A stretch of 32,507 nt of DNA from an uncultured Christensenellaceae bacterium (lineage in GTDB: Bacteria > Bacillota > Clostridia > Christensenellales > SZUA-584): positions 1 through 32,507 of the forward strand of contig CAZLRM010000001.1 of NCBI GenBank assembly GCA_964561895.1, read 5' to 3'. The notes under the pieces are model-generated. The model was not told the origin of the DNA. It saw nothing but the letters and a program-made list of their open reading frames with translations, and did no database searches. The translations under genes were made by a program, and so were the position numbers. The number at the start of each line of letters is the position of its first letter. Position 1 is the stretch's first letter. This document shows, in pieces, positions 1-25,586 of the stretch.

Positions 1-306
1 CATGAACATCGAATCGCCCGAGAACATGCGCCCGAGCGCTTTGCCGAAGCCGCCCTGCATGTTGGTCTGCATCGTGATTCCGCTGTCCATCCAGATCATG
101 CCGCCCGACTGTGTAAAAATGCTTTCACCCGCGTCCAAACGGATGGAGACCGCGGGCAGGTTGCCGCCGAAGATTTCGTACCGTAAAGATTTTTGCGCGT
201 TGGGGGCCTGCGCCGCGCTCTGGGGCGCTTCGCCCAGCTGTGCGCCGCACGAATTACAGAAGCGCGTGCCGTCGGGGAGTGACGCGCCGCATTTGGGACA
301 GAACAT
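1..306 (-). CDS. AIM24/DUF124 (TIGR00266-type) family protein with N-terminal zinc ribbon; 3' end lies beyond the window
   Basis: Reverse-strand ATG at 306-304 preceded by GGAGG (caggaggtgcaattATG). The frame is open to position 1. Translation MFCPKCGASLPDGTRFCNSCGAQL (CxxC-x10-CxxC) then LRYEIFGGNLPAVSIRLDAGESIFTQSGGMIWMDSGITMQTNMQGGFGKALGRMFSGDSMFM, the typical N-terminal pattern of AIM24/DUF124 proteins. Absent from the ORF track because no stop lies inside the window. Confidence 0.8.
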   Translation of the reverse strand, partial: MFCPKCGASLPDGTRFCNSCGAQLGEAPQSAAQAPNAQKSLRYEIFGGNLPAVSIRLDAGESIFTQSGGMIWMDSGITMQTNMQGGFGKALGRMFSGDSMFM

Positions 307-679
307 AATTGCACCTCCTGTTAATTTAGTTTCACAGATTCAATATACCATACCGCGTAAGGAAATGTATACCAAGAAAACGGAGAAGCGCGGGAGTGGG
401 GAAGGGGGAGGTATGGAATAACCAGCGTGGTACATTTTTAGTTTATATGGGATATATTGAAGAAATATGGGGGAAGGTGGTATAATGGGGGAGGTGGGGA
501 TAATGTCTATAATGTGGTGTTGGTTGATTTGCTAACAGATACCCATTATTAGTACCTTGGAACGTGGGGTATGCGGCTCTATTTGCTTATTTTATATTGT
601 ATCAGTTATATAGATGTATTTATTCAATAACACACAGACGGATAAAATTTTCTTCAAAGAATATAGGAGGAATAAAACC

Positions 680-1381
680 ATGGCAAGATGTACAGCACCA
701 GTTTACGGTCATCGCACAGCGAGTGGAAGGGCAAACTGCCCAGTGTGTGGAGGTGGTTATCGAGGTTACAACTCTTATTCCTCATATTCGTCCTCATATT
801 CTTCACCGTATTCTTCATTATCAAACAGTTCACCAAGTCGTAGTAGTGGTGGCGGACAAACAAAGACGAAAGCACGTTGGTCTCCAGTTGGTTCCACTAT
901 TTTATATACTCCTGCAGAAATTCGAACACTTACTCCTGTGCGTGAAAATGTTGAGAAACGTTCGAAATTACCAGATTTACGAGATGTTTTTCTTTGTCAC
1001 GCTTGGGATGACCGTAAAGATGCAGCTAAAGAACTACACGACTTACTTGAAGCAAAAGGTGTAACTACTTGGTTTAGTGAAAGGGATGTTCCTTTAGGTT
1101 CATCTTTGCTTCGTGAAATTGATAAAGGGTTGGCGAAATCTCGCGTCGGTATTGTATTGGTTACACCTTCATTCCTTAAACGTGTTGAGGGAGAAGGAAT
1201 TGCAGATAAAGAACTTTCAGCTTTGCTAGCTCGTGATTTGCTTGTTCCTATTGTACATAATACGACTTTTGAAGATTTACGTGAAGTTAGTCCGTTACTT
1301 GGTTCGCGAAGTGGCTTAAGTACTATTGAAGAATCAATGGTAGATATTGCAGCTAAAATAGCGGAATTGGTTGCTTCATAA
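680..1381 (+). CDS. TIR-domain protein with N-terminal CHCC zinc knuckle and Ser/Tyr-rich low-complexity linker (233 aa)
   Basis: ATG at 680 lies 9 nt after AGGAGG (665-670); the track start at 614 is an in-frame upstream extension. Residues 102-233 show the TIR secondary-structure motifs: DVFLCHAWDD, TTWFSERDVPLGSSL, VGIVLVTPSFLK, DKELSALLA, LVPIVHN. The N-terminus has C-x6-H-x8-C-x2-C. Residues 27-59 read YRGYNSYSSYSSSYSSPYSSLSNSSPSRSSGGG. Confidence 0.85.
   Translation: MARCTAPVYGHRTASGRANCPVCGGGYRGYNSYSSYSSSYSSPYSSLSNSSPSRSSGGGQTKTKARWSPVGSTILYTPAEIRTLTPVRENVEKRSKLPDLRDVFLCHAWDDRKDAAKELHDLLEAKGVTTWFSERDVPLGSSLLREIDKGLAKSRVGIVLVTPSFLKRVEGEGIADKELSALLARDLLVPIVHNTTFEDLREVSPLLGSRSGLSTIEESMVDIAAKIAELVAS
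779..826 (+). repeat. Imperfect 12-nt tandem repeat (about 4 units) inside the TIR gene, encoding the S/Y-rich linker
   Basis: tcctcatattcg / tcctcatattct / tcaccgtattct / tcattatcaaac read consecutively from 779. Confidence 0.6.
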
Positions 1382-1386
1382 ACGAC

Positions 1387-1518
1387 ATGGAAAAATCAAA
1401 CTCTATTCTAATTGACGATATGTCTGGATTTTTAAATGAAAAAAGTGTATCTGAAAACAATCCGGATCAAATCGAAGCTGAAAATTTGGCAGATCAAATG
1501 CTTGCTAATACAAATTAA
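1387..1518 (+). CDS. Hypothetical 43-aa acidic peptide immediately downstream of the TIR gene
   Basis: ATG at 1387 lies 5 nt after the TIR stop; translation MEKSNSILIDDMSGFLNEKSVSENNPDQIEAENLADQMLANTN. No clear Shine-Dalgarno. It sits upstream of the first intrinsic terminator (1576-1610), so it would be co-transcribed with the TIR gene. Below the ORF-track size cutoff. Confidence 0.25.
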   Translation: MEKSNSILIDDMSGFLNEKSVSENNPDQIEAENLADQMLANTN

Positions 1519-1575
1519 TTTGAATGCGTTTCAGCGCAATAAATATCCCCCGGCCTAGTGAACCTGTAAAATAAA

Positions 1576-1610
1576 AGTAGACATAATAAAAGAAATAGTG
1601 TCTACTTTTT
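1576..1610 (+). terminator. Rho-independent terminator ending the TIR transcription unit
   Basis: Perfect 8-bp stem AGTAGACA (1576-1583) / TGTCTACT (1599-1606), 15-nt loop, followed by TTTTT. Confidence 0.7.
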
Positions 1611-1647
1611 CTTATGAGGGGGCAGGTCAGGGTTTATTACGCTTATA

Positions 1648-1656
1648 TGATATAAT
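1648..1656 (+). promoter_or_regulatory. Extended -10 promoter candidate (TGaTATAAT) pointing into the ORF-free region
   Basis: tgatataat at 1648-1656, just downstream of the terminator. No good -35, which extended -10 promoters tolerate. Confidence 0.35.
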
Positions 1657-1807
1657 CGTATAGACGTACTTTAACGGGAAGAAACGGTAAAAGCATAAAG
1701 CAAAGCATCGCCAAGCTGCCTGTAGTAAGATGATTATTAATGGGAAAGTCGGTATTAGTTACATATAGAGAATTCAAAGACAATGGCAAAATAGCGGATT
1801 TGAGTTT

Positions 1808-1911
1808 TGTGTGATTATTTCTTGTTCGCTCTAAGTAATGTGTCACCCATAATATTAAAAAGTGCAAGCAAAATATGTGTGATTATTTCTTATTTTTGTG
1901 TGATTATTTCT
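1808..1911. repeat. Three exact direct copies of the 15-mer TGTGTGATTATTTCT
   Basis: Copies at 1808-1822, 1876-1890 and 1897-1911. The last two start 21 nt apart, about two helical turns. They lie in ORF-free AT-rich DNA. Confidence 0.9.
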
Positions 1912-2274
1912 AATCTCTTATCAGTTGGACAGCCGATTTTGTTTACTTCACTTCTACTACATTTTCTGTAGCATAGCATAGATAGGTACTTTTTAGACCG
2001 CATAGACACAGTAGAATCGCTCAAAACCCCTTTAGATCGGCGCTGCGGCTTACTGCCTTATGCGTTCCGAACCATGTGTCTACCTCCTACTAAACTCCGT
2101 GCAGGAGGGATTGCAGATGATATTGTTTTTGAAAGTTTAAATTCAAATCAGACAGAGTACTTACGAGATACATAAATGAATCAGACATGCACATTATCCG
2201 TATTACGCTCACTCCCACAAATTATAGCGAGCTCAGCTTATTTACAATTCTATACTTTTAACCCTTGTGGACTA

Positions 2275-2375
2275 CACATAGTAACATGCCTTTTGAATGG
2301 GCCGCCCCCGAGAAAGGCAATCATAAGGACGGGTAATGCACGTAAAAACCGCTGACAAACGAAGCTTGGCAGCGG
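2275..2375 (+). repeat. Copy A of a roughly 101-nt structured element; its inverted partner is at 22991-23092
   Basis: Hand alignment to the reverse complement of 22991-23092 gives 84 of 102 identical columns. Both copies contain the outer palindrome TGCCTTT..AAAGGCA and a terminal GC-rich hairpin. Confidence 0.85.
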
Positions 2376-2385
2376 CTATTTTTTT
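2349..2385 (+). terminator. Intrinsic terminator-like hairpin at the end of repeat copy A
   Basis: CCGCTG-a-CAA / TTG-g-CAGCGG stem followed by ctaTTTTTTT. An A-run precedes it, so it could act in both directions. Confidence 0.6.
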
Positions 2386-2458
2386 GAGCGCCCCTGAGCG
2401 ATGGCGCCGCGCAGAATGAGTGCAGCAAATGGCAGTCACTGCCGGAAGGAGATAGGGT

Positions 2459-2851
2459 ATGCAGATCGATATGACACAGATCATCATCGCGGGGGTGGGC
2501 GTGCTGTTCACCGCGGTAATCGCGCCGCTTGTCAAGGCGGCGTTTGAATGGCTCAAGGGCAAGAAGAGCAACGAGGCGATGCGCGCCGCGCTGGAGGAGG
2601 CGAAGGCCGTGGCGGACAACGTGGTCGCGGGCGTGCAGGCGAGCGTGGTGGACGGGCTCAAAGCCAAAAGCGCGGACGGCAAGCTGTCGGCGGACGACGC
2701 GGCGGAGGTCGCGGATATGGCGCTTTCGATGTTCCTCTCCGATATCTCGGAGCGCACGCTTTCCGTGCTTGAATCGGGCGCGGACGACATCACGGCCTAC
2801 ATCAGCAACCTGATCGAGTCGCGTCTGGCGCAGAGCAGGAAGCAGGGGTGA
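2459..2851 (+). CDS. Phage holin-like membrane protein (LL-H-type architecture)
   Basis: RBS GGAAGGAGA lies upstream. One N-terminal TM segment (IIIAGVGVLFTAVIAPLV) is followed by a long Ala/Glu/Lys-rich helical tail, as in LL-H family holins. The assignment rests on architecture and recalled similarity only. Confidence 0.5.
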   Translation: MQIDMTQIIIAGVGVLFTAVIAPLVKAAFEWLKGKKSNEAMRAALEEAKAVADNVVAGVQASVVDGLKAKSADGKLSADDAAEVADMALSMFLSDISERTLSVLESGADDITAYISNLIESRLAQSRKQG

Positions 2852-2855
2852 GCGC

Positions 2856-3431
2856 ATGGCGGCAATCCACTCGCAGCTCATCGACGACCAGTACAAGAAG
2901 CGGGCCGAAGCGCAGACAGCTAAGCTGAAGGCGGAGCGCGACGCCGGCAAGGCGCAGTACGAAAATCAGCTAAATAAGTCGGACGAGACGTATCAGCCGC
3001 TGCGCAACGAGGCGTATGTCAACCACGCGCTCGCGGAGAAAGCGCGCAAGGAGAACATGGCCAACATGGGGATGTCGGGCGAGGGCGGCACGTCGCTCTC
3101 TCTGCAGCAGCAAAACGCCGGCAATCTCTTAAACACGCTGGGCGATGCGTCGCGGCAGCAGCGGGGCTACGAGGACGAGATCAACCTCGCATTGGCCAAT
3201 CTCGATACGGCGTATCGGGCCAACGTGAACAGCGCAGCGGCGGAAACCGAGGCGCAGCGTATCGCGGCGCAGCTTTCGCAGAGCCACTTCGAAGTCAGCA
3301 ACGCGCTGAGTCAAAACCAGTACGAGCTGTCGAAAAGCGGCAGCCTGTTCAGCCAGTATTATCAGCTGCTTAAAGCCAAGCGCATCACCAAGAAGCAGTT
3401 TGAGCAGGCCACGGGAATCGATCTGAAGTAA
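2856..3431 (+). CDS. Hypothetical coiled-coil protein, prophage-associated
   Basis: 191-aa ORF starting 4 nt after the previous stop. It is Gln/Ala/Glu-rich with a heptad-like composition. No family recognised. Confidence 0.55.
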   Translation: MAAIHSQLIDDQYKKRAEAQTAKLKAERDAGKAQYENQLNKSDETYQPLRNEAYVNHALAEKARKENMANMGMSGEGGTSLSLQQQNAGNLLNTLGDASRQQRGYEDEINLALANLDTAYRANVNSAAAETEAQRIAAQLSQSHFEVSNALSQNQYELSKSGSLFSQYYQLLKAKRITKKQFEQATGIDLK

Positions 3432-3442
3432 CTAAGACGCAT

Positions 3443-3833
3443 ATGAGTCTTTCCATCAGCGATATTTACGGCGAGGTGCAAAAGGCAGTGAGCGCCCGGC
3501 GCGCCGCGGATGAAATCGCGAACGCCTTGCGGTACGGCGCCGCGCGGGACGCGGCGCTCGCTTCGCAGGGCAACTTTCGACAGAGCGATGAATCTGCAAA
3601 GGCAGCAGCTGGAGTTGCAGCGCTTTTATGCAGGCGTATTCGTGCCCGACAGCAGCCAGACGGGCAACGCGGGCTTTACGGAGATGACGGGCATCGGCGT
3701 GAATAACCCGCTGCGGAGCATAGGGAAAGCCAGTTCACAAGAAGCCGGAGCAGCAACGCGTATCTCGGCTCCGCCACCGGTAAACATATTGACATCACCG
3801 CGGGTAAAACGCCGGACCTTTTTGACGCGGTGA
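3443..3833 (+). pseudogene. Disrupted hypothetical phage-remnant gene (two overlapping frames)
   Basis: The frame from 3443 gives a plausible MSLSISDIYGEVQKAVSARRAADEIANALRYGAARDAALASQGNF and then degenerates into Arg/Gly-rich text. A second frame gives plausible NLQRQQLELQRFYAGVFVPDSSQTGNAGFTEMTGIGVNNPL from about 3588. This is consistent with a frameshift near 3575-3590, or with two short genes. Confidence 0.3.
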
Positions 3834-3976
3834 AAATTCTGCTTCATCTTATTCCTGATTTTTGCGGCCAAATATGATTCGCGTACATTATTAAAGCTAC
3901 AGCGAGTGAACGATATACATATGATATTGACGCGCTTTTTTGCGGTATATTTCACAAAATCCACCATAAAGTCCGA

Positions 3977-4005
3977 TTGACAATCAGCTGTAACAAGACT
4001 ACACT
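3977..4005 (+). promoter_or_regulatory. Sigma-A type promoter for the ATP-grasp/KamA pair
   Basis: TTGACA (3977-3982), 17-nt spacer, TACACT (4000-4005). The TTG used as the ORF-track start at 3977 is the -35 box. Confidence 0.5.
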
Positions 4006-13575: not shown

Positions 13576-15390
13576 CTAGAATATCCGGTATCCGCAGATA
13601 AAATATCTCTTCCAATAGCTGCTGCCGACGTATTGGCGCTTGACGACCTTATGGTTGCTGGACGATGCGTCGATCATGTAACCGTTGCCCGCGCATATCG
13701 CCACATGCCCTTTGAATACGATCACGTCGCCGCGCTTCAAGTCGCTCATGCTCTTGATTCTGGTGTATTTAGTGCAGCTGCGCCATGTGTACGATGTCAT
13801 GTAGCTTTGCTTGACGCCCACCTGTTTTAAACACCAGTATACAAAGCCCGAGCAGTCGAACACATTGGGGCCCTTTCCGCCGCCCACATATTTGCAGCCT
13901 ATCTTCGACTCCGCAACCGATATGAAGGACTCCACGTTCGCGCCGGTGATATTGGCCGAAGAGCCGGAGCCGGAGCTTGAACCGGAGCCGGAGCTTGAAC
14001 CGGAACCGGAGCTTGAACCGGAACCGGAGCTTGAACCGGAACTTGCCGCTTTTTTCGCTTTTGAGGAGCCCAGCATATTCATTGTGACTCTCCCGACCTT
14101 ACCATCCGCGCTGAGCTTGTTTCTGCTCTGAAAGTTTTTCACGGCTTTTTCTGTTGCCTCGCCGAAATACCCGGTAATTTTGCCTTTGAAATAGTTGAGC
14201 TTTTTGAGCTGCTGCTGGATATAGGTGACCTGGTCTCCGCGGTCGCCCACGGTATACGCGTTGCTTTTGGCATCACCGGACATCAGCGCGCTTGCGGTGG
14301 CCGGGCCTAAATACCCGTCCGCGATGAGGCCGTTGGTCTCCTGAAACTGCCGGATGGCTTCCTTGGTATCCTTCCCGAAAGTACCGTCCGGTTCCGAAAA
14401 CAGATAGTTCAGTTTTTTGAGGCGTTTCTGGTATTCCAGTATCTCGTCGCTCTTATCGCCGATGGCGAAAAACTTGGCGACCACGTCTTCGGAATACAGT
14501 TTTTCGCGCGCATCCTGGCCGATCATACCGTCCTGGCTCAAATTGTTAAGCTTCTGGAATTTCATAACTGCAGCCTTGGTTTCGTCTCCGAAGTAGCCGG
14601 TGGACTTGTCCATATAGCCGAGCTCCACAAGCCGCTGCTGCAATTCCCTAACGTCCGTGTCCACGTCGGTGTCCTTTGCGCCAACCGAGAGCGTGTAATA
14701 CTGCGCTTGCTCGCTCATGAGCAGTTCATAGGTTGCCTCGTCCACGACGCCGTCCGCGGCGAGCCCGCTTTGCGTCTTGAAATGATTGATCGCAATCTCC
14801 GTCTGATCACCGAAAATGCTGTCAGGTTCGTCCGCGTCTAGATACCCGAGATCCATGAGGCGAATCTGTATATCGGACACAACAGTGGCCGTGACGCCTG
14901 TGGTGATATGCACCGATTCGTATACCGGCTTCACCACCGTAATGCTTGCGAGCTTGGTGGGCGCGGGAGAGGAAAGCAAGTCGGATTGGCTGGCTTTCTG
15001 CGCCGCGGTTTGCCGCGCGTTCCCGCCCGGCAGCGCGATTATAAGCACGATACCTGCGATTAAGGCGGCGGCAAGCGCTCCGCCCGCGATGAGTACTTTT
15101 CGCTTATCCTTGATACGAAATATGCGGCGGTGTCCGTAACCTTTGCTGCGCAGCTGTGCGGCGGTGGGCGTGCTGCGCTGCGTTCTGTAACCGGAGGGCA
15201 CAGCATCGGTTTTTACGGCAGCCCCGGCGGAGGTTTTTCCGGTCAGGCGCTTCATCAGCGTTTTTATCTGCTGCGCCACTGCGCCGAGCCATTCTCCCGC
15301 ACGCTTCAAAAGAGCGCGGGTCAGCTTTCCCATCTGACGCCAAAGGTTTTTATGATATTTGAATTGCTTTCTTTTTCGATGCTGTGACAT
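13576..15390 (-). CDS. Membrane-anchored cell-wall hydrolase: 4 x PG_binding_1 repeats plus C-terminal NlpC/P60 (C40) peptidase
   Basis: ATG at 15390 follows AGAGAGG. One TM segment (VLIAGGALAAALIAGIVLIIAL). Four LGY..DG.FG..T..A...FQ...GL..DG repeats, a Ser/Gly linker, a catalytic Cys in FDCSGFVYWCL and a His in KGHVAI. Confidence 0.9.
   Translation of the reverse strand: MSQHRKRKQFKYHKNLWRQMGKLTRALLKRAGEWLGAVAQQIKTLMKRLTGKTSAGAAVKTDAVPSGYRTQRSTPTAAQLRSKGYGHRRIFRIKDKRKVLIAGGALAAALIAGIVLIIALPGGNARQTAAQKASQSDLLSSPAPTKLASITVVKPVYESVHITTGVTATVVSDIQIRLMDLGYLDADEPDSIFGDQTEIAINHFKTQSGLAADGVVDEATYELLMSEQAQYYTLSVGAKDTDVDTDVRELQQRLVELGYMDKSTGYFGDETKAAVMKFQKLNNLSQDGMIGQDAREKLYSEDVVAKFFAIGDKSDEILEYQKRLKKLNYLFSEPDGTFGKDTKEAIRQFQETNGLIADGYLGPATASALMSGDAKSNAYTVGDRGDQVTYIQQQLKKLNYFKGKITGYFGEATEKAVKNFQSRNKLSADGKVGRVTMNMLGSSKAKKAASSGSSSGSGSSSGSGSSSGSGSSSGSGSSANITGANVESFISVAESKIGCKYVGGGKGPNVFDCSGFVYWCLKQVGVKQSYMTSYTWRSCTKYTRIKSMSDLKRGDVIVFKGHVAICAGNGYMIDASSSNHKVVKRQYVGSSYWKRYFICGYRIF
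13961..14045. repeat. 18-nt tandem repeat (about 4.7 units) encoding the (SSGSGS)n linker of the first P60 paralog
   Basis: Units gaaccggaRccggagctt at 13961, 13979, 13997 and 14015, plus a partial unit at 14033. Confidence 0.9.
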
Positions 15391-15419
15391 AAATTTACCT
15401 CTCTGATGATAGCTGCCGT

Positions 15420-17066
15420 TTAAAATACACGAAACGCGCAAACGAAACCGATCCCCGTGGTCAGCTTGCGCTGTACTACCTTGTGATTCCTGGATGACGC
15501 ATCGATCTGCATACCGCCGCCCAGCGCGATCGCGCAGTGGCCTTTAAAGATAATGATGTCGCCGCGTTTTAATTCTCTGATGCTCGTGATCTTGGTATAC
15601 TTAGTACAGCTTGGCCACGCGTGAGACGTCAGATAGCCCTGTCTGACACCCACCTGATTGAGGCACCAGTATACGAATCCGGAACAGTCGAATACATTGG
15701 GCCCTTTTCCGCCGCCTACATACCTGCAGCCCAGCTTCGATTTCGCTACAGAGATGAACGAATCGACATTGGCGCCGGTGATACTCACGCCCGTGGATTT
15801 CTTCGCGTTGGGCGAATTGAGCGCTCTTAAGGTAGCGGCGCCTACCTTGCCGTCCACGGAAAGCCCGTTGCGGTATTGGAAACTGCGTACGGCGGTCTCG
15901 GTACCGGGGCCGAAATTACCGTCCGCCTTACCTTTGAGGTATTTAAGGTCGATAAGCCTTTGCTGCACGTTGACAACCTGCGCGTTGTTGTCGCCCCTTT
16001 TCAGCGCGCCATCTTTCGCTTCTTCCGACATCAGCGCGGCCTGTGTGGCGGGCCCTAAAAAACCGTCCGCGATAAGGCCGTTAGCTTCCTGAAAGCGCTG
16101 TACGGCAGCTTTGGTATCCTTGCCGTAGTTGCCGTCGGGCTCGGTGGTTAAATAGCCCAGCTTTTTAAGGCGCTTCTGGAAATCCAGTATTTCGTCGCTT
16201 TTCTCGCCGGAGGAGTAGAAATTGGCGATGGCATTCTCGGCGTAGAGCATCTCGCGCGTGGCCTGATCAATACTGCCGCTTTGCTCGAGGCTATTGATCT
16301 TTTGGAACTTATTGACCGCGCCCTCGGTATCCTCGCCGAAAGTCCCTGTGGCTTTGTTCAAATAGCCGAGCTCTACAAGCCGCTGCTGCAGTTCATAGAC
16401 GTCGGTATCGTCCTCCGTATCCTGCGCGCCGCGAGAGACCGTGTAATACTGCGCGTCGCCGCCCATCAGCAGCACATAGGCTGCTTCATCAACGATGCCG
16501 TCCGCGGCAAGCCCGTGCTGCGCTTTAAAGTGGTTGACCGCGATGGCGGTTTGGTCGTCGAATACGCCGCTTGTTTCGTCCGCGGCCATGTACCCCAGCT
16601 CCATCAGCTGCTTTTGAACATCGGAAACCACCATTGCGGCGGTACCCTGCTCGATATGCACCGATTCGCTGACCGGCATTACTACTGTGACGTCCGCGAG
16701 CCTCATTGCGGAGGATGAGGCGCCCGTTCCCGTGTGCCCGGCAGTCTGCTTCGGGTTTCCCGTCAGCGTCACAAGCAACACGGCGCAGATGGCGACTGCA
16801 GCCACTGCGCTGCCCGCGATGATCGCAATGCGTTTATTCATGCGGAAAAAACGAAGAAGCCCTGCGCCGCGGCTGACAGAATGCGAAACAGCGGCAGGCG
16901 GCCTGCGGTATGTTTGCCGCGCGGAAACGCGCGGCGCGGCGGTATAACGCCTGCCAAAAGCCTGCGGCTGCCGTTTCCCGTGTGAAAACAGCGCCGCAGC
17001 GCGCGATAACGTTTCCCGCAATATTTTAATGATATAAGGTTCAGACTTATAACGGTGTTTGGACAT
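15420..17066 (-). CDS. Paralogous membrane-anchored hydrolase: 4 x PG_binding_1 plus NlpC/P60
   Basis: ATG at 17066 follows GGAAGAGGA. It has the same architecture and a near-identical catalytic region (FDCSGFVYWCLNQVGV, KGHCAI) but no Ser/Gly repeat linker. Its stop lies 29 nt upstream of the next gene's start. Confidence 0.9.
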   Translation of the reverse strand: MSKHRYKSEPYIIKILRETLSRAAALFSHGKRQPQAFGRRYTAAPRVSARQTYRRPPAAVSHSVSRGAGLLRFFRMNKRIAIIAGSAVAAVAICAVLLVTLTGNPKQTAGHTGTGASSSAMRLADVTVVMPVSESVHIEQGTAAMVVSDVQKQLMELGYMAADETSGVFDDQTAIAVNHFKAQHGLAADGIVDEAAYVLLMGGDAQYYTVSRGAQDTEDDTDVYELQQRLVELGYLNKATGTFGEDTEGAVNKFQKINSLEQSGSIDQATREMLYAENAIANFYSSGEKSDEILDFQKRLKKLGYLTTEPDGNYGKDTKAAVQRFQEANGLIADGFLGPATQAALMSEEAKDGALKRGDNNAQVVNVQQRLIDLKYLKGKADGNFGPGTETAVRSFQYRNGLSVDGKVGAATLRALNSPNAKKSTGVSITGANVDSFISVAKSKLGCRYVGGGKGPNVFDCSGFVYWCLNQVGVRQGYLTSHAWPSCTKYTKITSIRELKRGDIIIFKGHCAIALGGGMQIDASSRNHKVVQRKLTTGIGFVCAFRVF

Positions 17067-17135
17067 ATCCTCTTCCTGTGGGCTTAAAGCCTTGATTTTT
17101 GCTTGAGTATTTTCACAGGTTGTACTGACGGCTCT

Positions 17136-17164
17136 ATTATAGCGAATTGCGGAGCTTTTCGCAA
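17136..17164 (-). promoter_or_regulatory. Sigma-A promoter of the P60 operon
   Basis: On the minus strand: TTGCGA (17164-17159), 17 nt, TATAAT (17141-17136). The spacer carries the inverted repeat ATTGCG-n8-CGCAAT. Confidence 0.55.
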
Positions 17165-17243
17165 TACTTTTGTAATATTTAATGTGCGTGCCGGCAAATT
17201 TTGCGCAACATAGATGGATGAAAAAGAACTGCGATGTGCAATA

Positions 17244-17273
17244 TTGACAAGCTTGTTGGCGCGCCTATATAAT
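17244..17273 (+). promoter_or_regulatory. Consensus sigma-A promoter of the gcv operon
   Basis: TTGACA (17244-17249), 18-nt spacer, TATAAT (17268-17273). Confidence 0.65.
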
Positions 17274-17297
17274 GAGTTAATCGAAAAATACATGGAT

Positions 17298-17487
17298 GAC
17301 GGATGCGGGAGAGTTGAAATACACCGAAAATGTAAGCCGCAAAACGCGGTGGAACTTTCAGGTAAAATGGTCTGATACTGACAACACTCTGGAGAGCTTT
17401 ATGACACAAAAGGAGCAACGGGTTTATCCCGGATCTCTCAGGTCAGAATACAGAGGGGGACGGCATTTTTGTTGTCTTCCTTTTTTT
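17298..17487 (+). promoter_or_regulatory. Tandem glycine riboswitch with expression-platform terminator
   Basis: Aptamer 1: GCGGGAGAG..CACCGAA..ACTTTCAGGTAAAATGGTC. Aptamer 2: CTCTGGAGAG..CACAAAAGGAGCAA..ATCTCTCAGGTCAGAATACAGAG. Terminator: AGGGGGACGGCA tttt TGTTGTCTTCCT (17454-17481) followed by a T-run. It lies directly upstream of gcvT. Confidence 0.85.
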
Positions 17488-17512
17488 ATTTGAGAGGCAG
17501 AAAGGATTTTTT

Positions 17513-21854: not shown

Positions 21855-22634
21855 ATGCAGCAGATCGACAAGGGCGGCATGGCGGCGATTAAGCCGCTGT
21901 TTGCGGGCATGGACGATACCATGATACTCTCCTGCCTGCAGGGGCATATGGGGTGCGCGTGGGCGGATGACGCACAGCGCCCGAAAGCAGCACAAATCGT
22001 CACGGGAGATTTATGTTTTCTTGCGGGCGACAGCGAATGCGAAGGTGCGCAGCAGCTTGCCTCGCACATACCGCAAGGTTACGCTTCGCCGTCGCTTCAT
22101 GTCTTCTGCCAGAGCGGGGGATGGCGAAAGCTCGTTGAGGATATTTTCGGCGCGCGGGCGGTGAAGTATACGCGGTACGCGCTATGCCGTGACGCAAGCG
22201 GGTTCGATGCGGAAAAGCTGGCAGATATCGCGCATAGGATACTGCCGGAATACCGCGTTGTGCCGATTGATGCGCGGCTGTTTGATCAAACGCGGCGGGA
22301 GGCATGGTCGAAGGACTTTTGCTCGCAGTTTAAGGATTATGCGGATTACCAGCGCCGCGGCCTCGGCTTTGCTGCAATGGCGGGTGAAGAGCCCGTTAGC
22401 GGCGCGTCCTCCTATACGGTATATGACGGCGGCATTGAGGTCGAAATCGCCACAAAGACGGAGCATCGCCGCAAAGGGCTTGCGGCGGCATGCGCTGCGC
22501 GGCTCATGCTTGCGTGCATGGAGCGCGGTCTGTTCCCCAACTGGGACGCGGCAAATCAAAAATCACTGGCGCTGGCGTGCAAGTTGGGTTACCGCTTCGA
22601 CAGGGAATATATCGCTTATGAACTGCACATATAA
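21855..22634 (+). CDS. GNAT family N-acetyltransferase
   Basis: C-terminal GNAT core EVEIATKTEHRRKGLAAACAARLMLACMERGLFPNWDAANQKSLALACKLGY (acetyl-CoA-binding R-R-K-G-L pattern). Confidence 0.75.
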   Translation: MQQIDKGGMAAIKPLFAGMDDTMILSCLQGHMGCAWADDAQRPKAAQIVTGDLCFLAGDSECEGAQQLASHIPQGYASPSLHVFCQSGGWRKLVEDIFGARAVKYTRYALCRDASGFDAEKLADIAHRILPEYRVVPIDARLFDQTRREAWSKDFCSQFKDYADYQRRGLGFAAMAGEEPVSGASSYTVYDGGIEVEIATKTEHRRKGLAAACAARLMLACMERGLFPNWDAANQKSLALACKLGYRFDREYIAYELHI

Positions 22635-22752
22635 CGTGCGGTATTTGTTAGGAAAGACAGAAAAAAGCAATAATTAGATCGGGAAGGCTTTACAGACCGG
22701 TAATTTTCGTGTAATATGTGTATTCAAATGGTATTATGATGTGAGGGATATT

Positions 22753-22941
22753 ATGAAAGAAAAGAAATATATTGAGTTTATGAACGATATGTCGTTTCCA
22801 AACGAGAGGGTCAGATATATCGGGAAGGTCAAATACCGCGTACAGGATGAGACCGTTGATAAATACCTGATATCCAGAAAAAAGAATATATCGCTGAGCA
22901 AATCCAAAGAGGGAGAGCTGTACTCGGTACGGGAATTCTGA
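22753..22941 (+). CDS. Orphan hypothetical protein (62 aa) on a small AT-rich islet
   Basis: ATG at 22753 follows GAGGGA. Lys-rich MKEKKYIEFMNDMSFPNERVRYIGKVKYRVQDETVDKYLISRKK... Its composition is unlike the flanking genes, and two hairpins follow it. Confidence 0.45.
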   Translation: MKEKKYIEFMNDMSFPNERVRYIGKVKYRVQDETVDKYLISRKKNISLSKSKEGELYSVREF

Positions 22942-22966
22942 ATATCAGAGAGATCAGATATTATAA

Positions 22967-23023
22967 AAGGCTGCATGCGCAGCCTTCAGACCGCTGACAA
23001 ACTTCGTTTGCCGGCGGTTTTTT
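22967..23023 (+). terminator. Two consecutive hairpins; the second is an intrinsic terminator and is also the end of repeat copy B
   Basis: First hairpin AAGGCTGC atgc GCAGCCTT (22967-22986). Second hairpin ACCGCTGACAAAC ttc GTTTGCCGGCGGT (22990-23018) followed by TTTTTT. Confidence 0.6.
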
Positions 23024-24768: not shown

Positions 24769-24788
24769 AAATGACTTGTCCGTCATTT
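24769..24788. promoter_or_regulatory. Perfect inverted repeat AAATGAC-n6-GTCATTT, candidate MarR/FabT-type operator
   Basis: It lies between the -10 box and the start codon of the MarR gene. Confidence 0.4.
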
Positions 24789-24809
24789 GTATCGGGGTGG
24801 GGGAATATC

Positions 24810-25259
24810 ATGGACGAGCGGGAAATCAAAAAGCTGCTGAATCAGGTGCTCAAAGACCTGTTCTATAAAATACTCCGTTTACAGGAAAGAAACGTATCGC
24901 AGTCGTCCGGAAGCGCGGTCAGCCGCACGGAGATGCATATATTGGAAGCTGTGCAGGACGAACCGGACGCCACGCTTACGCACATCGCGGATACGATGGG
25001 CATCACCAAACCGACTGTGAGCGTATCGGTAGCGCGCCTGACGGAAAAGGGCCTGCTTAAAAAAGCAGTGTCTGAAAAAGACAAGCGAAAAAGCATTTTG
25101 AAGCTGACCGAAGCGGGGGAAATTTGCTGCCATAAACACAGACAGTTCCACGATATGATGATTGAAGGCCTCGTACGCGATTTTAAAATTGAGGAATACC
25201 CGTATGTATTAAAATCCCTTCAGGCGCTGCTCGACTTTTTTAGCCATCTCGAACACTGA
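24810..25259 (+). CDS. MarR family transcriptional regulator (FabT-like by position upstream of the fab cluster)
   Basis: Winged-HTH TLTHIADTMGITKPTVSVSVARLTEKGLLKK..DKRKSILKLTEAG. ATG at 24810 follows GGTGGGGGA. Confidence 0.8.
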   Translation: MDEREIKKLLNQVLKDLFYKILRLQERNVSQSSGSAVSRTEMHILEAVQDEPDATLTHIADTMGITKPTVSVSVARLTEKGLLKKAVSEKDKRKSILKLTEAGEICCHKHRQFHDMMIEGLVRDFKIEEYPYVLKSLQALLDFFSHLEH

Positions 25260-25456
25260 GAATCGCACTTTACGGATCAGTTTGTGCTCACCGGAAAATA
25301 CAATCACGCAAACAATATTAAAAGAGTAATAATAATCAAAACGCTTTCGAAAATGTTTCTTAATAAACATAGCCATATTATACGATGGACAGCCATCTGC
25401 CGTCTTTCTCTATGAACGTTTTATAAATCCTGTTACATTTGTTAACAATCGTTTCA

Positions 25457-25485
25457 TTGACATCACCGAATCAAGGTGTTAATAT
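25457..25485 (+). promoter_or_regulatory. Promoter of the acc/fab operon
   Basis: TTGACA (25457-25462), 17-nt spacer ending TGt, TAATAT (25480-25485). The inverted repeat GTTAG-tagtg-CTAAC at 25502-25516 lies just downstream, and the palindrome TGTTAACA just upstream. Confidence 0.55.
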
Positions 25486-25586
25486 TCTTTAAAAATGAAT
25501 TGTTAGTAGTGCTAACCTTAATGGATGTATGACTACTATTTTTACGGCAATAGATACTAGGAACGCCTTGAATTGCGGAGGATGGC

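What the first reader, a model, noticed from the sequence alone, without database searches (positions are those of the whole stretch)
680..1381. Stand-alone TIR-domain gene (zinc knuckle + Ser/Tyr low-complexity linker + TIR) on an AT-rich islet beside a prophage remnant: candidate single-gene anti-phage effector
Seen in sequence:
- A 233-aa ORF with a strong RBS.
- Its C-terminal 130 aa carry the TIR motif series (DVFLCHAWDD / WFSERDVPLGSSL / VGIVLVTPSFLK / DKELSALLA / LVPIVHN).
- Its N-terminus is a C-x6-H-x8-C-x2-C knuckle.
- Residues 27-59 are almost only S, Y, G and P.
- The gene and its surroundings are visibly AT-rich, between a GC-rich host gene and phage-type genes.

Established knowledge: bacterial TIR domains act as NAD-consuming or signal-generating modules in Thoeris, CBASS, Pycsar, SPARTA and some retrons. 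In each case they work with a dedicated partner (ThsA, cyclase, short pAgo, RT).

None of those partners is present in this window, and the only neighbours are a 43-aa ORF and ORF-free DNA.

Inference: this may be a self-contained defence or abortive-infection gene. The zinc knuckle would be the sensing part, and the Tyr/Ser low-complexity stretch would promote the concentration-dependent self-association that generally activates TIR NADases.
Basis: partly seen in the sequence, partly recalled or inferred. Interest (0 to 1): 0.78.

Follow-up and report, generated by a model that had tools for sequence, protein, structure and literature searches.

The report
Stand-alone zinc-knuckle TIR gene, recently imported
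This is an intact, recently imported copy of a very widespread and unusually conserved one-gene TIR protein (zinc knuckle, Ser/Tyr/Gly-rich linker, TIR enzyme domain) that never has a fixed partner gene and most likely stops growth of an infected cell by destroying NAD+, although nobody has yet tested it.

Summary
ORF 680-1381 encodes a 233-aa protein behind an AGGAGG RBS. It has a C4/H11/C20/C23 knuckle, a Ser/Tyr/Gly linker and a C-terminal TIR domain (Pfam TIR_2, 1.5e-15). It lies in roughly 1.9 kb of 34-39% GC DNA inside a 54-64% GC genome.

It is not a one-off. The same full-length architecture occurs in at least 548 species across many phyla at 65-91% identity, on 212 plasmids, and in 109 complete E. 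coli genomes.

PADLOC labels it ThsB (8e-111, full length). However, no ThsA or any other partner is conserved in 82 loci, and the window holds only housekeeping genes.

The TIR domain is closest to AbTir, PdTIR and TcpB. The catalytic Glu (E178) and the BB-loop Gly/Ser are kept. The WxxxE tryptophan needed for ADP-ribose cyclisation is Ile or Val throughout the family. That points to an NAD+-hydrolysing effector rather than a signal maker.

GC3 tracks the host (0.13-0.76), and dN/dS in the TIR domain is 0.04-0.19.

Best reading: a single-gene abortive-infection TIR NADase carried by mobile DNA. The sensing and condensation roles proposed for the knuckle and linker remain inference.

The parts
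430..2290 (.). AT-rich islet (approximate limits) between the host AIM24-like gene and the GC-rich holin-like gene
   Evidence: GC is 0.34-0.39 for 501-2000, against 0.54 and 0.64 in the flanks. The sequence was read. Region 1400-2460 has no match in the phage or plasmid collections.
608..679 (+). Conserved 5' leader that travels with the gene; includes the RBS AGGAGG at 666-671
   Evidence: DNA homology to the closest relatives, which sit in unrelated contexts, begins at 557-628. The RBS is seen. The predicted fold is not significant (z = -1.26).
680..1381 (+). CDS of the 233-aa stand-alone TIR protein
680..754 (+). N-terminal CHCC zinc knuckle (residues 1-25; ligands C4, H11, C20, C23)
   Evidence: The pattern is present in all 82 family members examined. 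The fourth ligand is His instead of Cys in the distant members P0125 and P0139. dN/dS is about 0.1-0.2 in most pairs, up to 0.64 in some close pairs with few sites. No Pfam model covers it. Zinc binding itself is inferred.
755..865 (+). Ser/Tyr/Gly-rich low-complexity linker (residues 26-62)
   Evidence: Across the family it is 34-51 residues long, with S 35.5%, G 18.5%, Y 12.9% and a median of 5 Tyr. The sequence is relaxed (dN/dS 0.08-1.4) while the composition is kept. AF2 pLDDT is below 50 here.
866..979 (+). Conserved pre-TIR linker (residues 63-100; RWS...YTPxEIRxLTPVR)
   Evidence: W67, Y76, P86 and R88 are invariant. The YTPxE motif is shared with the coiled-coil relatives P0210, P0231, P0233 and P0265.
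980..1378 (+). TIR domain (residues 101-233)
   Evidence: Pfam TIR_2 E 1.5e-15. Nearest solved structures are PdTIR, AbTir, BtTir and TcpB, by sequence at 1e-16 to 5e-12 and by fold with TM about 0.7-0.8 on the target. dN/dS is 0.04-0.19.
1199..1213 (+). I174-A-D-K-E178: the family's version of the WxxxE motif. E178 (1211-1213) is the putative catalytic Glu; I174 (1199-1201) sits where the Trp should be.
   Evidence: Alignment with relatives that keep GW[AT][DEN][KREY]EL. The position is Ile in 78 and Val in 3 of the 81 members where the motif pattern matched; the remaining member, L052 (SIADKEL), also has Ile. The role of the Trp in cyclisation comes from bioRxiv 10.1101/2022.05.07.491051.
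1382..1406 (+). Short conserved 3' tail; end of the portable unit in this copy
   Evidence: Homology to L001, L006, L008 and L012 stops at 1406. Those loci continue into a further roughly 100-210 nt shared element that the window lacks.
1387..1518 (+). 43-aa ORF; not part of the unit
   Evidence: Not conserved in any of the 82 loci. No Pfam, PADLOC or PHROG hit.
1573..1615 (+). Hairpin (AAAAGTAGACA / TGTCTACTTTT) followed by a T-run; a possible terminator of the TIR transcript
   Evidence: Inverted repeat I7, 11 nt, 100% complementary. The terminator scan did not call it because the loop is 15 nt, so this is tentative.
1808..1915 (+). Three direct repeats of TGTGTGATTATTTCT in ORF-free AT-rich DNA; origin unknown
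   Evidence: Repeat family D1.

Best explanation
The gene encodes a self-contained TIR-domain NAD+ hydrolase of the AbTir/PdTIR/TcpB clade. It is carried as a one-gene cassette by mobile DNA and most likely acts as a single-gene abortive-infection (anti-phage or anti-MGE) effector.

Shown:
- The protein is intact and under purifying selection.
- It never has a conserved partner gene.
- It keeps the catalytic Glu (E178) and the BB-loop Gly/Ser (G140, S142).
- In place of the coiled coil found in its nearest relatives, it carries a conserved CHCC knuckle plus a Ser/Tyr/Gly disordered segment.
- This copy was imported recently from a low-GC donor.

Inferred:
- In uninfected cells the protein is dispersed and inactive.
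- A trigger that acts on the N-terminal module brings TIR domains together. The trigger could be a phage protein or nucleic acid, or simply a rise in local concentration.
- The composite active site forms across two TIR domains, as in AbTir filaments.
- E178 then cleaves NAD+.
- Because the aromatic residue of the WxxxE motif is Ile or Val, the product is expected to be linear ADP-ribose plus nicotinamide rather than a cyclic ADPR signal.
- The outcome would be NAD+ depletion and growth arrest rather than signalling to a second protein.
For: Domain and active site:
- TIR_2 E 1.5e-15.
- Nearest structures are the NADases and TIRs AbTir, BtTir, PdTIR and TcpB.
- E178 aligns with the Glu of GWxxxEL in relatives and is conserved in at least 90% of members.
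- G140 and S142 correspond to AbTir G174 and S176, whose Ala mutants lose activity.

Stand-alone status:
- No recurrent neighbour in 82 loci.
- No ThsA, SIR2, SLOG or Macro among the top families of 148 flanking ORFs.
- A SIR2 neighbour in one locus only.
- DNA homology is limited to the gene, about 60-120 nt upstream and 25 nt downstream.
- The gene sits alone on 9.9-kb mobilizable Acinetobacter plasmids and on many other plasmids.

Effector rather than signal maker:
- The WxxxE Trp is Ile or Val in all 82 members examined.
- An aromatic residue at this position is found in all tested cyclic-ADPR producers, and the W204A mutant lowers cyclisation.

Role of the N-terminal module:
- The coiled-coil relatives share the YTPxE linker plus TIR.
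- AbTir needs its coiled coil plus TIR for self-association, and its activity rises disproportionately with concentration and crowding.

Precedent: single-protein TIR-only systems defend E. coli and need the TIR active site.

Functional gene:
- dN/dS is 0.04-0.19 in the TIR domain.
- GC3 ranges 0.13-0.76 and tracks host GC, r = 0.78.
- This copy has GC3 0.21 in 0.55 flanks.

Context: neighbours include RM, AbiL, and Gabija/PARIS/Septu-like ATPases, RmrA, conjugation genes and recombinases.
Against: - No member of this family is known to me to have been tested. NADase activity, phage defence and zinc binding are all unproven here.
- Loss of the WxxxE Trp lowers NADase activity in AbTir and SARM1, so the enzyme could be weak or could use another substrate.
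- Conservation of 65-91% identity across phyla is atypical for fast-evolving defence genes. It hints at a constraint I cannot name.
- The family is essentially absent from phage genomes. Only a minority of immediate neighbours are defence genes, and I made no formal enrichment test.
- The AF2 model is poor outside the TIR core (mean pLDDT 58; residues 26-85 below 50). It therefore says nothing about how the knuckle relates to the TIR domain.
Confidence: 0.5

Rival explanations
1. It is an orphan Thoeris-type ThsB: a TIR sensor that makes a nucleotide signal read by an effector (ThsA-like or other) encoded elsewhere in the genome.
For: There is a full-length match to the PADLOC model PDLC00424 'ThsB1|ThsB' (8e-111). 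Thoeris TIRs expressed alone do produce signal on infection. TIR signalling systems are diverse, with about 30 effector types.
Against: No effector is linked in 82 loci or in this window. The gene moves alone on small plasmids and IS-associated cassettes between phyla, where a signal without a receiver would be useless. The aromatic residue found in all tested cyclase TIRs is missing. The closest structures are AbTir, PdTIR and TcpB, not BcThsB. NCBIfam gives only a far sub-threshold hit to a Thoeris model (19 bits against a 220-bit cutoff).
Confidence: 0.15
2. It is a mobile-element maintenance or competition gene, for example plasmid addiction, exclusion of rival plasmids or ICEs, or a passenger that benefits its IS. 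It would not be a phage-specific defence, though it would still work through TIR-mediated NAD+ loss.
For: It lies on 212 plasmids, 102 of them conjugative. On Enterococcus plasmids it sits next to serine recombinases. In Klebsiella and E. coli it is directly downstream of an ISNCY transposase. On plasmids it is near MazEF and RES toxins. It is nearly absent from phages.
Against: There is no cognate antitoxin gene and no conserved flanking RNA. Many copies are chromosomal with no element genes nearby, including this window. Single-gene TIRs that have been tested acted against phages.
Confidence: 0.12
3. The TIR domain acts on something other than free NAD+. The zinc knuckle could bind nucleic acid and the TIR could act as a nuclease or 2',3'-cNMP synthetase, or as an ADP-ribosyl transferase, as described for some plant and bacterial TIRs (this comparison rests on my own knowledge).
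For: The NAD-stacking Trp is replaced family-wide. Retroviral-type knuckles bind single-stranded nucleic acids (my own knowledge). The strong conservation would fit a universal substrate.
Against: There is no direct evidence. The knuckle matches no known nucleic-acid-binding model. The catalytic Glu and the BB loop are those of NADase TIRs.
Confidence: 0.07
4. It is a Tcp-type virulence factor (like TcpB/BtpA, TcpC, TcpF) that interferes with eukaryotic TLR signalling.
For: The TIR domain is closest to TcpB and PdTIR.
Against: The family occurs in groundwater, rumen, soil and marine bacteria of many phyla. The architecture differs from TcpF (N-terminal TIR, 274 aa) and BaTdp (TIR at 126-266).
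Confidence: 0.03
5. This particular copy is a dead passenger: imported but no longer expressed or functional.
For: It lies in ORF-poor, foreign AT-rich DNA. It has lost the roughly 100-210 nt downstream element kept in its nearest relatives.
Against: The reading frame is intact. All family-invariant residues are present. The RBS and conserved leader are kept. The identical protein is found in two other sequencing runs.
Confidence: 0.03

Closest known systems
AbTir / BtTir / PdTIR / TcpB clade of bacterial TIR proteins (AbTir: NADase making 2'cADPR; PDB 7UWG, 7UXU, 8G83, 7UXR, 3H16, 4LQC)
   Same: This is the closest TIR domain by sequence (E 1e-16 to 5e-12, about 30-40% identity) and by fold. 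The catalytic Glu and the BB-loop Gly/Ser are shared. The overall plan is the same: an N-terminal assembly module, a linker, then a C-terminal TIR. Intermediate relatives (P0210, P0231, P0233, P0265) share the YTPxE pre-TIR linker.
   Different: The N-terminal coiled coil is replaced by a CHCC knuckle plus a Ser/Tyr/Gly low-complexity segment. The WxxxE Trp, needed for cyclisation, is Ile or Val. Conservation is far higher and the distribution far wider.
Single-protein TIR-only anti-phage systems of E. coli (TIR-V, TIR-VI, TIR-IX; Wang et al. 2024, PMC11350192)
   Same: These are one-gene systems in which only a TIR domain is recognisable. Defence depends on the TIR active site and has an abortive-infection phenotype. 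The E. coli orthologue of this family is present in full length in 109 of 5426 complete genomes, so that screen may have sampled it.
   Different: I could not map the family to any of their clusters because the supplementary data are not held. Their triggers (portal and tail-fibre proteins) are known for those systems only.
Thoeris ThsB (types I-IV and the newer types)
   Same: TIR-domain protein. PADLOC files this family under a ThsB model, with a full-length hit at 8e-111.
   Different: No ThsA or other effector is linked in any of the 82 loci or in the window. The cyclase-associated aromatic residue is missing. The systematic Thoeris survey explicitly discarded stand-alone TIRs.
PADLOC candidate PDC-S66 and phage TIR families phrog_15646 / phrog_9211
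   Same: These are single-gene TIR candidates with the TIR at the C-terminus. Matches cover residues 91-231 (5.7e-29; 1.4e-22).
   Different: Only the TIR part matches. Their N-terminal 130-150 residues are unrelated to the knuckle and low-complexity module.
TIR effectors of CBASS, Pycsar, SPARTA and retron type XII
   Same: In those systems the TIR domain is used as an NAD+-depleting executioner. The matches here are weak, domain-level hits.
   Different: In those systems the TIR is fused or linked to SAVED, cNMP-binding, APAZ/pAgo or RT modules. None of these is present here.

Membership tests
TIR-domain superfamily (Pfam TIR_2 / TIR) | Significant match to the TIR profile above the curated cutoff | tested here: met
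   TIR_2 scores 58.2 bits against a cutoff of 28. TIR scores 23.4 against 21.3. Foldseek probability to bacterial TIR structures is 1.00.
Enzymatic (NADase) TIR | Catalytic Glu in the alpha-C region | tested here: met
   E178 aligns with the Glu of GWxxxEL in relatives and in the AbTir-like P0251. It is conserved in at least 90% of members.
Enzymatic (NADase) TIR | BB-loop Gly and Ser needed for head-to-tail assembly and activity (AbTir G174, S176) | tested here: met
   G140 is invariant and S142 is at least 90% conserved. The correspondence comes from the pairwise alignments.
Enzymatic (NADase) TIR | Measured NAD+ cleavage | not testable with these tools
   Needs biochemistry.
Cyclic-ADPR-producing TIRs (AbTir, ThsB type I and similar) | Aromatic residue (W, Y or F) four residues before the catalytic Glu (WxxxE) | tested here: not met
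   The position is I174 in the window. It is Ile in 78 and Val in 3 of the 81 members where the motif pattern matched, and Ile in the remaining member L052. The aromatic residue was present in 12 of 12 cyclic-product TIRs.
AbTir-type Tcp proteins | N-terminal coiled-coil domain | tested here: not met
   Residues 1-62 are a CHCC knuckle plus a low-complexity segment. The coiled-coil-like N-termini are seen only in the more distant relatives P0210, P0231, P0233 and P0265.
Thoeris (ThsB) | TIR protein matching a ThsB profile | tested here: met
   PADLOC PDLC00424, 8e-111, residues 1-232 of a 234-position model. NCBIfam and Pfam ThsB-specific models do not match above threshold.
Thoeris (ThsB) | Encoded next to a ThsA-type effector (SIR2-SLOG, TM-Macro or another described effector) | tested here: not met
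   None in the window. No recurrent neighbour in 82 loci within +/-7 kb. No ThsA, SIR2, SLOG or Macro among the 25 most frequent families of 148 flanking ORFs. A SIR2_2 neighbour occurs only in the Dysgonomonas locus, where it follows a Piwi gene.
Thoeris (ThsB) | Produces a signalling molecule on infection | not testable with these tools
   Needs LC-MS of infected lysates.
Single-gene TIR anti-phage systems (TIR-V, -VI, -IX type) | One protein is sufficient, with no operon partner | tested here: met
   The genomic evidence is as above. The conserved DNA unit is the gene plus short flanks.
Single-gene TIR anti-phage systems (TIR-V, -VI, -IX type) | Protects against phage in a TIR-active-site-dependent way | not testable with these tools
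   I found no experimental record for this family.
Zinc knuckle / zinc ribbon | Four conserved metal ligands with Cys/His interchange | tested here: met
   C4, H11, C20 and C23 are present in all 82 members. C23 is replaced by His in P0125 and P0139. Actual metal binding was not tested.

The most novel reading that the evidence does not exclude
The family could be a self-contained sensor-effector that works by regulated condensation. The CHCC knuckle would recognise a cue common to infections in all bacteria, such as a nucleic-acid species or a host-state change, rather than a phage-specific protein. That would explain why the protein stays 65-91% identical from Bacillota to Pseudomonadota and Acidobacteriota. 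The FUS-like Ser/Tyr/Gly segment would then drive a phase transition that assembles the TIR domains into an active NAD+ hydrolase. If so, this would be a bacterial counterpart of concentration- or phase-activated TIR enzymes such as SARM1 (my own knowledge). It would also be a one-gene immune module small enough to ride on IS elements and 10-kb plasmids.
Probability: 0.2. Interest if true: 0.8.

Novelty: new variant of a known kind. Interest (0 to 1): 0.5.

Why it matters
Stand-alone bacterial TIR proteins were deliberately left out of the largest survey of TIR immunity, so their biology is largely unexplored. This family may be one of the most widespread and best conserved of them. It occurs in hundreds of species across many phyla, on more than 120 Klebsiella plasmids, on small Acinetobacter resistance plasmids and in E. 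coli chromosomes.

It is a compact, tractable test case for two questions:
- How is a TIR NADase kept off and switched on without any partner protein?
- Does a tyrosine-rich disordered segment act as the assembly switch?

Its presence on clinical plasmids also means it could affect phage-therapy outcomes.

Tried and rejected
- Partner gene nearby: all-against-all clustering of ORFs within +/-7 kb of 82 homolog loci found nothing recurrent. PADLOC and Pfam scans of 148 nearest neighbours found no family in more than 7. phmmer with the one SIR2 neighbour found no others.
- The 43-aa ORF as a partner: it is not conserved and has no family hit.
- A non-coding RNA partner:
  - Rfam on 1-4000 gave only a chance miRNA hit (E 0.25).
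  - There are no tRNAs.
  - The possible pairing between the RBS and the linker coding region (inverted repeat I2) is not supported: fold z = -1.26.
  - The roughly 100-210 nt element downstream of the gene in a sub-lineage is absent from the window.
- Overlapping ORFs: the alternative-frame ORF (564-1064) and the antisense ORFs that recur in homologs look like by-products of the conserved, stop-poor sequence. The window lacks the long antisense ORF.
- Origin of the islet: region 1400-2460 has no match in the phage or plasmid collections. An exact-protein look-up of a neighbouring gene found nothing, and the TIR protein itself is found only on two short contigs. I could therefore not obtain an empty-site comparison. 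The 19-nt direct repeat at 567 and 2455 is 79% identical and may be chance.
- Alternative architectures: longer 'fusions' among the 50% cluster representatives look like frameshifted or chimeric gene calls.
- Identity with named Tcps: TcpF and BaTdp have different layouts.
- Structure: the AF2 model is usable only for the TIR core, so I did not interpret the knuckle or linker from it and did not spend the second job.
- Mapping to Wang et al. clusters: no supplementary data are held and the accession is not found in the library.
Full report
**1. The observation**

The ORF is exactly as described. ATG is at 680, the stop at 1379-1381, and the product is 233 aa. AGGAGG lies at 666-671.

The protein starts with MARCTAPVYGHRTASGRANCPVCGG, which gives C4-x6-H11-x8-C20-x2-C23. 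Residues 27-59 are 29/33 Ser, Tyr, Gly or Pro. The C-terminal 130 residues match Pfam TIR_2 (1.5e-15, residues 103-195) and TIR (5.7e-05) above their curated cutoffs.

The gene lies in DNA of 34-39% GC (501-2000). The flanks are 54% and 64% GC.
- Upstream, on the other strand, is a GC-rich zinc-ribbon/AIM24 gene that runs off the window.
- Downstream there is only a 43-aa ORF and ORF-poor DNA, then a small GC-rich gene at 2459 with a weak holin match (5e-05). Two further small ORFs have no match.
- The remaining ORFs scanned with Pfam either gave no hit or are housekeeping: a Ddl-like ligase, a lysine-aminomutase-like enzyme, sugar kinase, glycine cleavage, acetyl-CoA carboxylase/fatty-acid synthesis, and NlpC/P60 hydrolases. 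The window holds no SIR2, SLOG, Macro, cyclase, Argonaute or reverse transcriptase.

**2. It belongs to a very large, very conserved family**

- A search of 5.8 billion proteins hit the scoring limit: all 8000 candidates scored were significant, and the best 120 are full-length at 78-91% identity.
- One genome per species gave at least 548 species with a relative. The 80 loci kept are 65-91% identical over residues 1-231/233. They come from Bacillota, Bacteroidota, Alpha-, Beta-, Gamma- and Deltaproteobacteria, Verrucomicrobiota, Acidobacteriota, Chloroflexota, Actinomycetota and Vampirovibrionales.
- At 50% clustering the family collapses to a handful of full-length representatives plus many fragments.
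- It is on 212 plasmid records: small MOBQ Acinetobacter plasmids with tet(39), Enterococcus plasmids, B. cereus pCER270, rhizobial plasmids, and more than 120 Klebsiella IncF-type plasmids.
- It is present in full length in 109 of 5426 complete E. coli genomes.
- It is essentially absent from phage genomes, with two distant TIR-only hits.

**3. It is stand-alone**

- I called ORFs within +/-7 kb of the gene in 82 non-redundant loci and clustered them all-against-all. Apart from the gene itself and ORFs overlapping it, the most widespread cluster covers 10 loci and is an ABC-type ATPase with variable position and strand.
- I then took the nearest ORF on each side (148 proteins) and scanned them. 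No PADLOC or Pfam family occurs in more than 7. None of the 25 most frequent is a ThsA, SIR2, SLOG or Macro family.
- The neighbours are a mixture:
  - XRE-type regulators;
  - AAA_15/21 ATPases that hit Gabija, PARIS and Septu models;
  - RmrA, AbiL, type I RM specificity subunits and conjugative coupling proteins;
  - unrelated metabolic genes.
- One locus (Dysgonomonas) has Piwi plus SIR2_2 downstream. phmmer with that SIR2 finds no counterpart in any other locus.
- At the DNA level, homology between the window and its closest relatives runs only from 557-628 to 1406. Those relatives sit in unrelated contexts. The shared unit is therefore about 60-120 nt of leader, the ORF and 25 nt beyond the stop.
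- The 43-aa ORF lies outside this unit.
- In Enterobacteria the gene lies directly downstream of an ISNCY transposase, on plasmids and inside a disrupted hipA on the chromosome. On an Enterococcus plasmid it lies between serine recombinase genes.

**4. It is a working gene, and this copy is a recent import**

- GC3 of the gene ranges from 0.13 to 0.76 among loci and follows the GC of the flanks (r = 0.78). Synonymous sites have therefore been rewritten to each host while the protein stayed 65-90% identical.
- Nei-Gojobori estimates give dN/dS of 0.04-0.19 for the TIR domain and about 0.1-0.2 for the knuckle in most pairs (up to 0.64 in some close pairs with few sites). The linker is looser at 0.08-1.4 and keeps composition rather than sequence.
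- Against a Xanthobacter copy, synonymous sites are saturated (pS 0.98) while pN in the TIR domain is 0.135.
- The window copy has GC3 0.21 in flanks of 0.55. Its closest relatives are from low-GC Clostridia (L012 at 91%). That marks it as a recent acquisition.
- All family-invariant residues are present.
- The identical protein occurs in two other sequencing runs.

**5. What kind of TIR it is**

- By sequence, the nearest solved structures are PdTIR (1e-16), AbTir (2e-16), BtTir (7e-16) and TcpB (2e-12 to 5e-12). The fold search gives the same set, with TM about 0.7-0.8 on the target. ThsB structures do not appear among the matches.
- PADLOC gives a full-length hit to PDLC00424 'ThsB1|ThsB' (8e-111) and a C-terminal hit to the single-gene candidate PDC-S66 (5.7e-29).
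- NCBIfam has no model for the family.
- Pairwise HMMER alignments disagree on gap placement in the alpha-C region. An alignment through intermediate relatives resolves it. Relatives with coiled-coil-like N-termini read G-W-A-[DE]-[KRE]-E-L, with Phe in one. A knuckle-bearing relative (P0251) reads G-W-T-N-Y-E-L-D-G, exactly as in AbTir.
- That position is Ile in 78 and Val in 3 of the 81 members where the motif pattern matched. The one remaining member (L052, SIADKEL) also has Ile.
- In the AbTir study, E208A is dead. W204A drops 2'cADPR from 93% to 24% of product. All twelve cyclic-product TIRs examined have W, Y or F at that position. BB-loop G174A and S176A lose activity. The window keeps the corresponding G140 and S142.
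- My reading is a catalytically competent TIR that hydrolyses rather than cyclises. This is an inference from sequence.

**6. The N-terminal module**

- The four putative ligands are present in all 82 members. In two distant members the fourth Cys is His. That is the kind of exchange expected of a metal site.
- The low-complexity segment is 34-51 residues long, with 35.5% Ser, 18.5% Gly, 12.9% Tyr and a median of five Tyr.
- The module is portable. P0251 joins it to a canonical AbTir-like TIR without the YTPxE linker.
- In the nearest relatives the same position is occupied by a coiled-coil-like segment.
- For AbTir itself, the coiled coil and the TIR are both needed for concentration-dependent self-association. 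Activity rises disproportionately with concentration and crowding.
- This supports the idea that the knuckle plus linker is the assembly or regulation module. Whether it senses anything is unknown.
- The AF2 model (mean pLDDT 58; TIR 70-88; residues 26-85 below 50) does not help here.

**7. Mechanism I commit to**

A one-gene abortive-infection NADase. It is dispersed and inactive until a trigger acting through the N-terminal module brings TIR domains together. A composite active site then forms, E178 cleaves NAD+ to ADPR and nicotinamide, and the cell stops growing.

There is a precedent. In a screen of E. coli TIR proteins, three single-protein systems in which only a TIR domain is recognisable (TIR-V, -VI, -IX) protected against phages. 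Protection depended on the TIR active site, and portal or tail-fibre proteins acted as triggers.

[quoted passage not shown] It may therefore have sampled the E. coli orthologue of this family, but I could not map it because no supplementary data are held.

The Thoeris survey explicitly set stand-alone TIRs aside.

I put about 0.5 on this explanation as a whole. I am much more confident (about 0.9) in the parts that are shown: a functional, partner-less TIR protein of the AbTir-like clade, recently imported.

**8. Rivals**

- Orphan ThsB signalling to an unlinked effector: 0.15.
- Mobile-element maintenance or competition: 0.12.
- A substrate other than NAD+: 0.07.
- Eukaryote-directed Tcp: 0.03.
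- A dead copy: 0.03.

**9. Novelty and score**

The domain, the enzyme class and the one-gene logic are known. A defence database already carries a profile for the family, though under a label (ThsB) that its genomic context does not support.

What I could not find described in the literature I could search:
- the CHCC knuckle plus Ser/Tyr/Gly segment in place of a coiled coil;
- the family-wide loss of the WxxxE Trp;
- the exceptional conservation across phyla of a sporadic, mobile, partner-less gene.

I therefore rate it a new variant of a known kind, with moderate interest (0.5).

Noticed in passing
L001:8694-8915, L006:6137-6345, L012:4186-4370, L008:10697-10900, L091:4747-4970, L092:1275-1493(-), L093:179-360; window 1382-1406 only: A conserved non-coding element of roughly 100-210 nt lies directly after the TIR stop codon in one Bacillota sub-lineage. 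A long-range helix is predicted, and L012 and L093 lack exactly its apical 42 nt. It was found only 3' of this gene: an exact 23-mer scan of the metagenomes gave 3 hits, and the two whose upstream sequence is held are next to the TIR gene. There is no Rfam match. The window keeps only the first 25 nt.
   Followed up: partly
window 1808-1826, 1876-1894, 1897-1915: Three direct repeats of TGTGTGATTATTTCT lie in ORF-free AT-rich DNA downstream of the gene. They look like operator or iteron sites. The whole 1400-2460 stretch has no match in the phage or plasmid collections.
   Followed up: partly
P0251 (228 aa) and P0262 (236 aa): P0251 joins the same knuckle and low-complexity N-terminus to a canonical AbTir-like TIR with an intact GWTNYELDG motif, so the module has been shuffled. 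P0262 keeps the knuckle but has degenerate TIR catalytic motifs and no Pfam TIR hit.
   Followed up: partly
L094:5495-7705, L095:3983-7705, L096:6491-8687: In Klebsiella and E. coli, the orthologue (58.6% identity by tblastn, full length) sits directly downstream of an ISNCY-family transposase in the same orientation, on IncF plasmids. On an E. coli chromosome it lies inside a truncated hipA next to hipB. It may be an IS passenger. 257 further complete E. coli genomes carry only partial matches.
   Followed up: partly
window 2459-3706: A GC-rich holin-like ORF (phrog_13712, 5e-05) is followed by two small ORFs with no family match. It may be a remnant of a prophage lysis module, with no other phage genes nearby.
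   Followed up: partly
window 13576-17066 (-): Two tandem paralogous genes each encode four PG_binding_1 repeats plus an NlpC/P60 peptidase domain (620 and 547 aa).
   Followed up: no
window 17001-17500, 22501-23000, 25001-25500: Further AT-rich dips (GC 0.39-0.43) occur between housekeeping operons. The last one flanks a MarR-family regulator at 24771-25259.
   Followed up: no
window 564-1064 (+), and homolog loci: An alternative-frame ORF of 166 aa overlaps the knuckle and linker coding region and recurs in 40 loci. An antisense ORF recurs in 65 loci but is absent from the window. Both are judged by-products of conserved, stop-poor sequence.
   Followed up: partly
L003:9071-12039: In Dysgonomonas, a 635-aa Piwi protein and a 349-aa SIR2_2 protein lie 375 nt downstream of the TIR gene. 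Neighbourhoods of this kind might explain why the family was filed as ThsB.
   Followed up: partly
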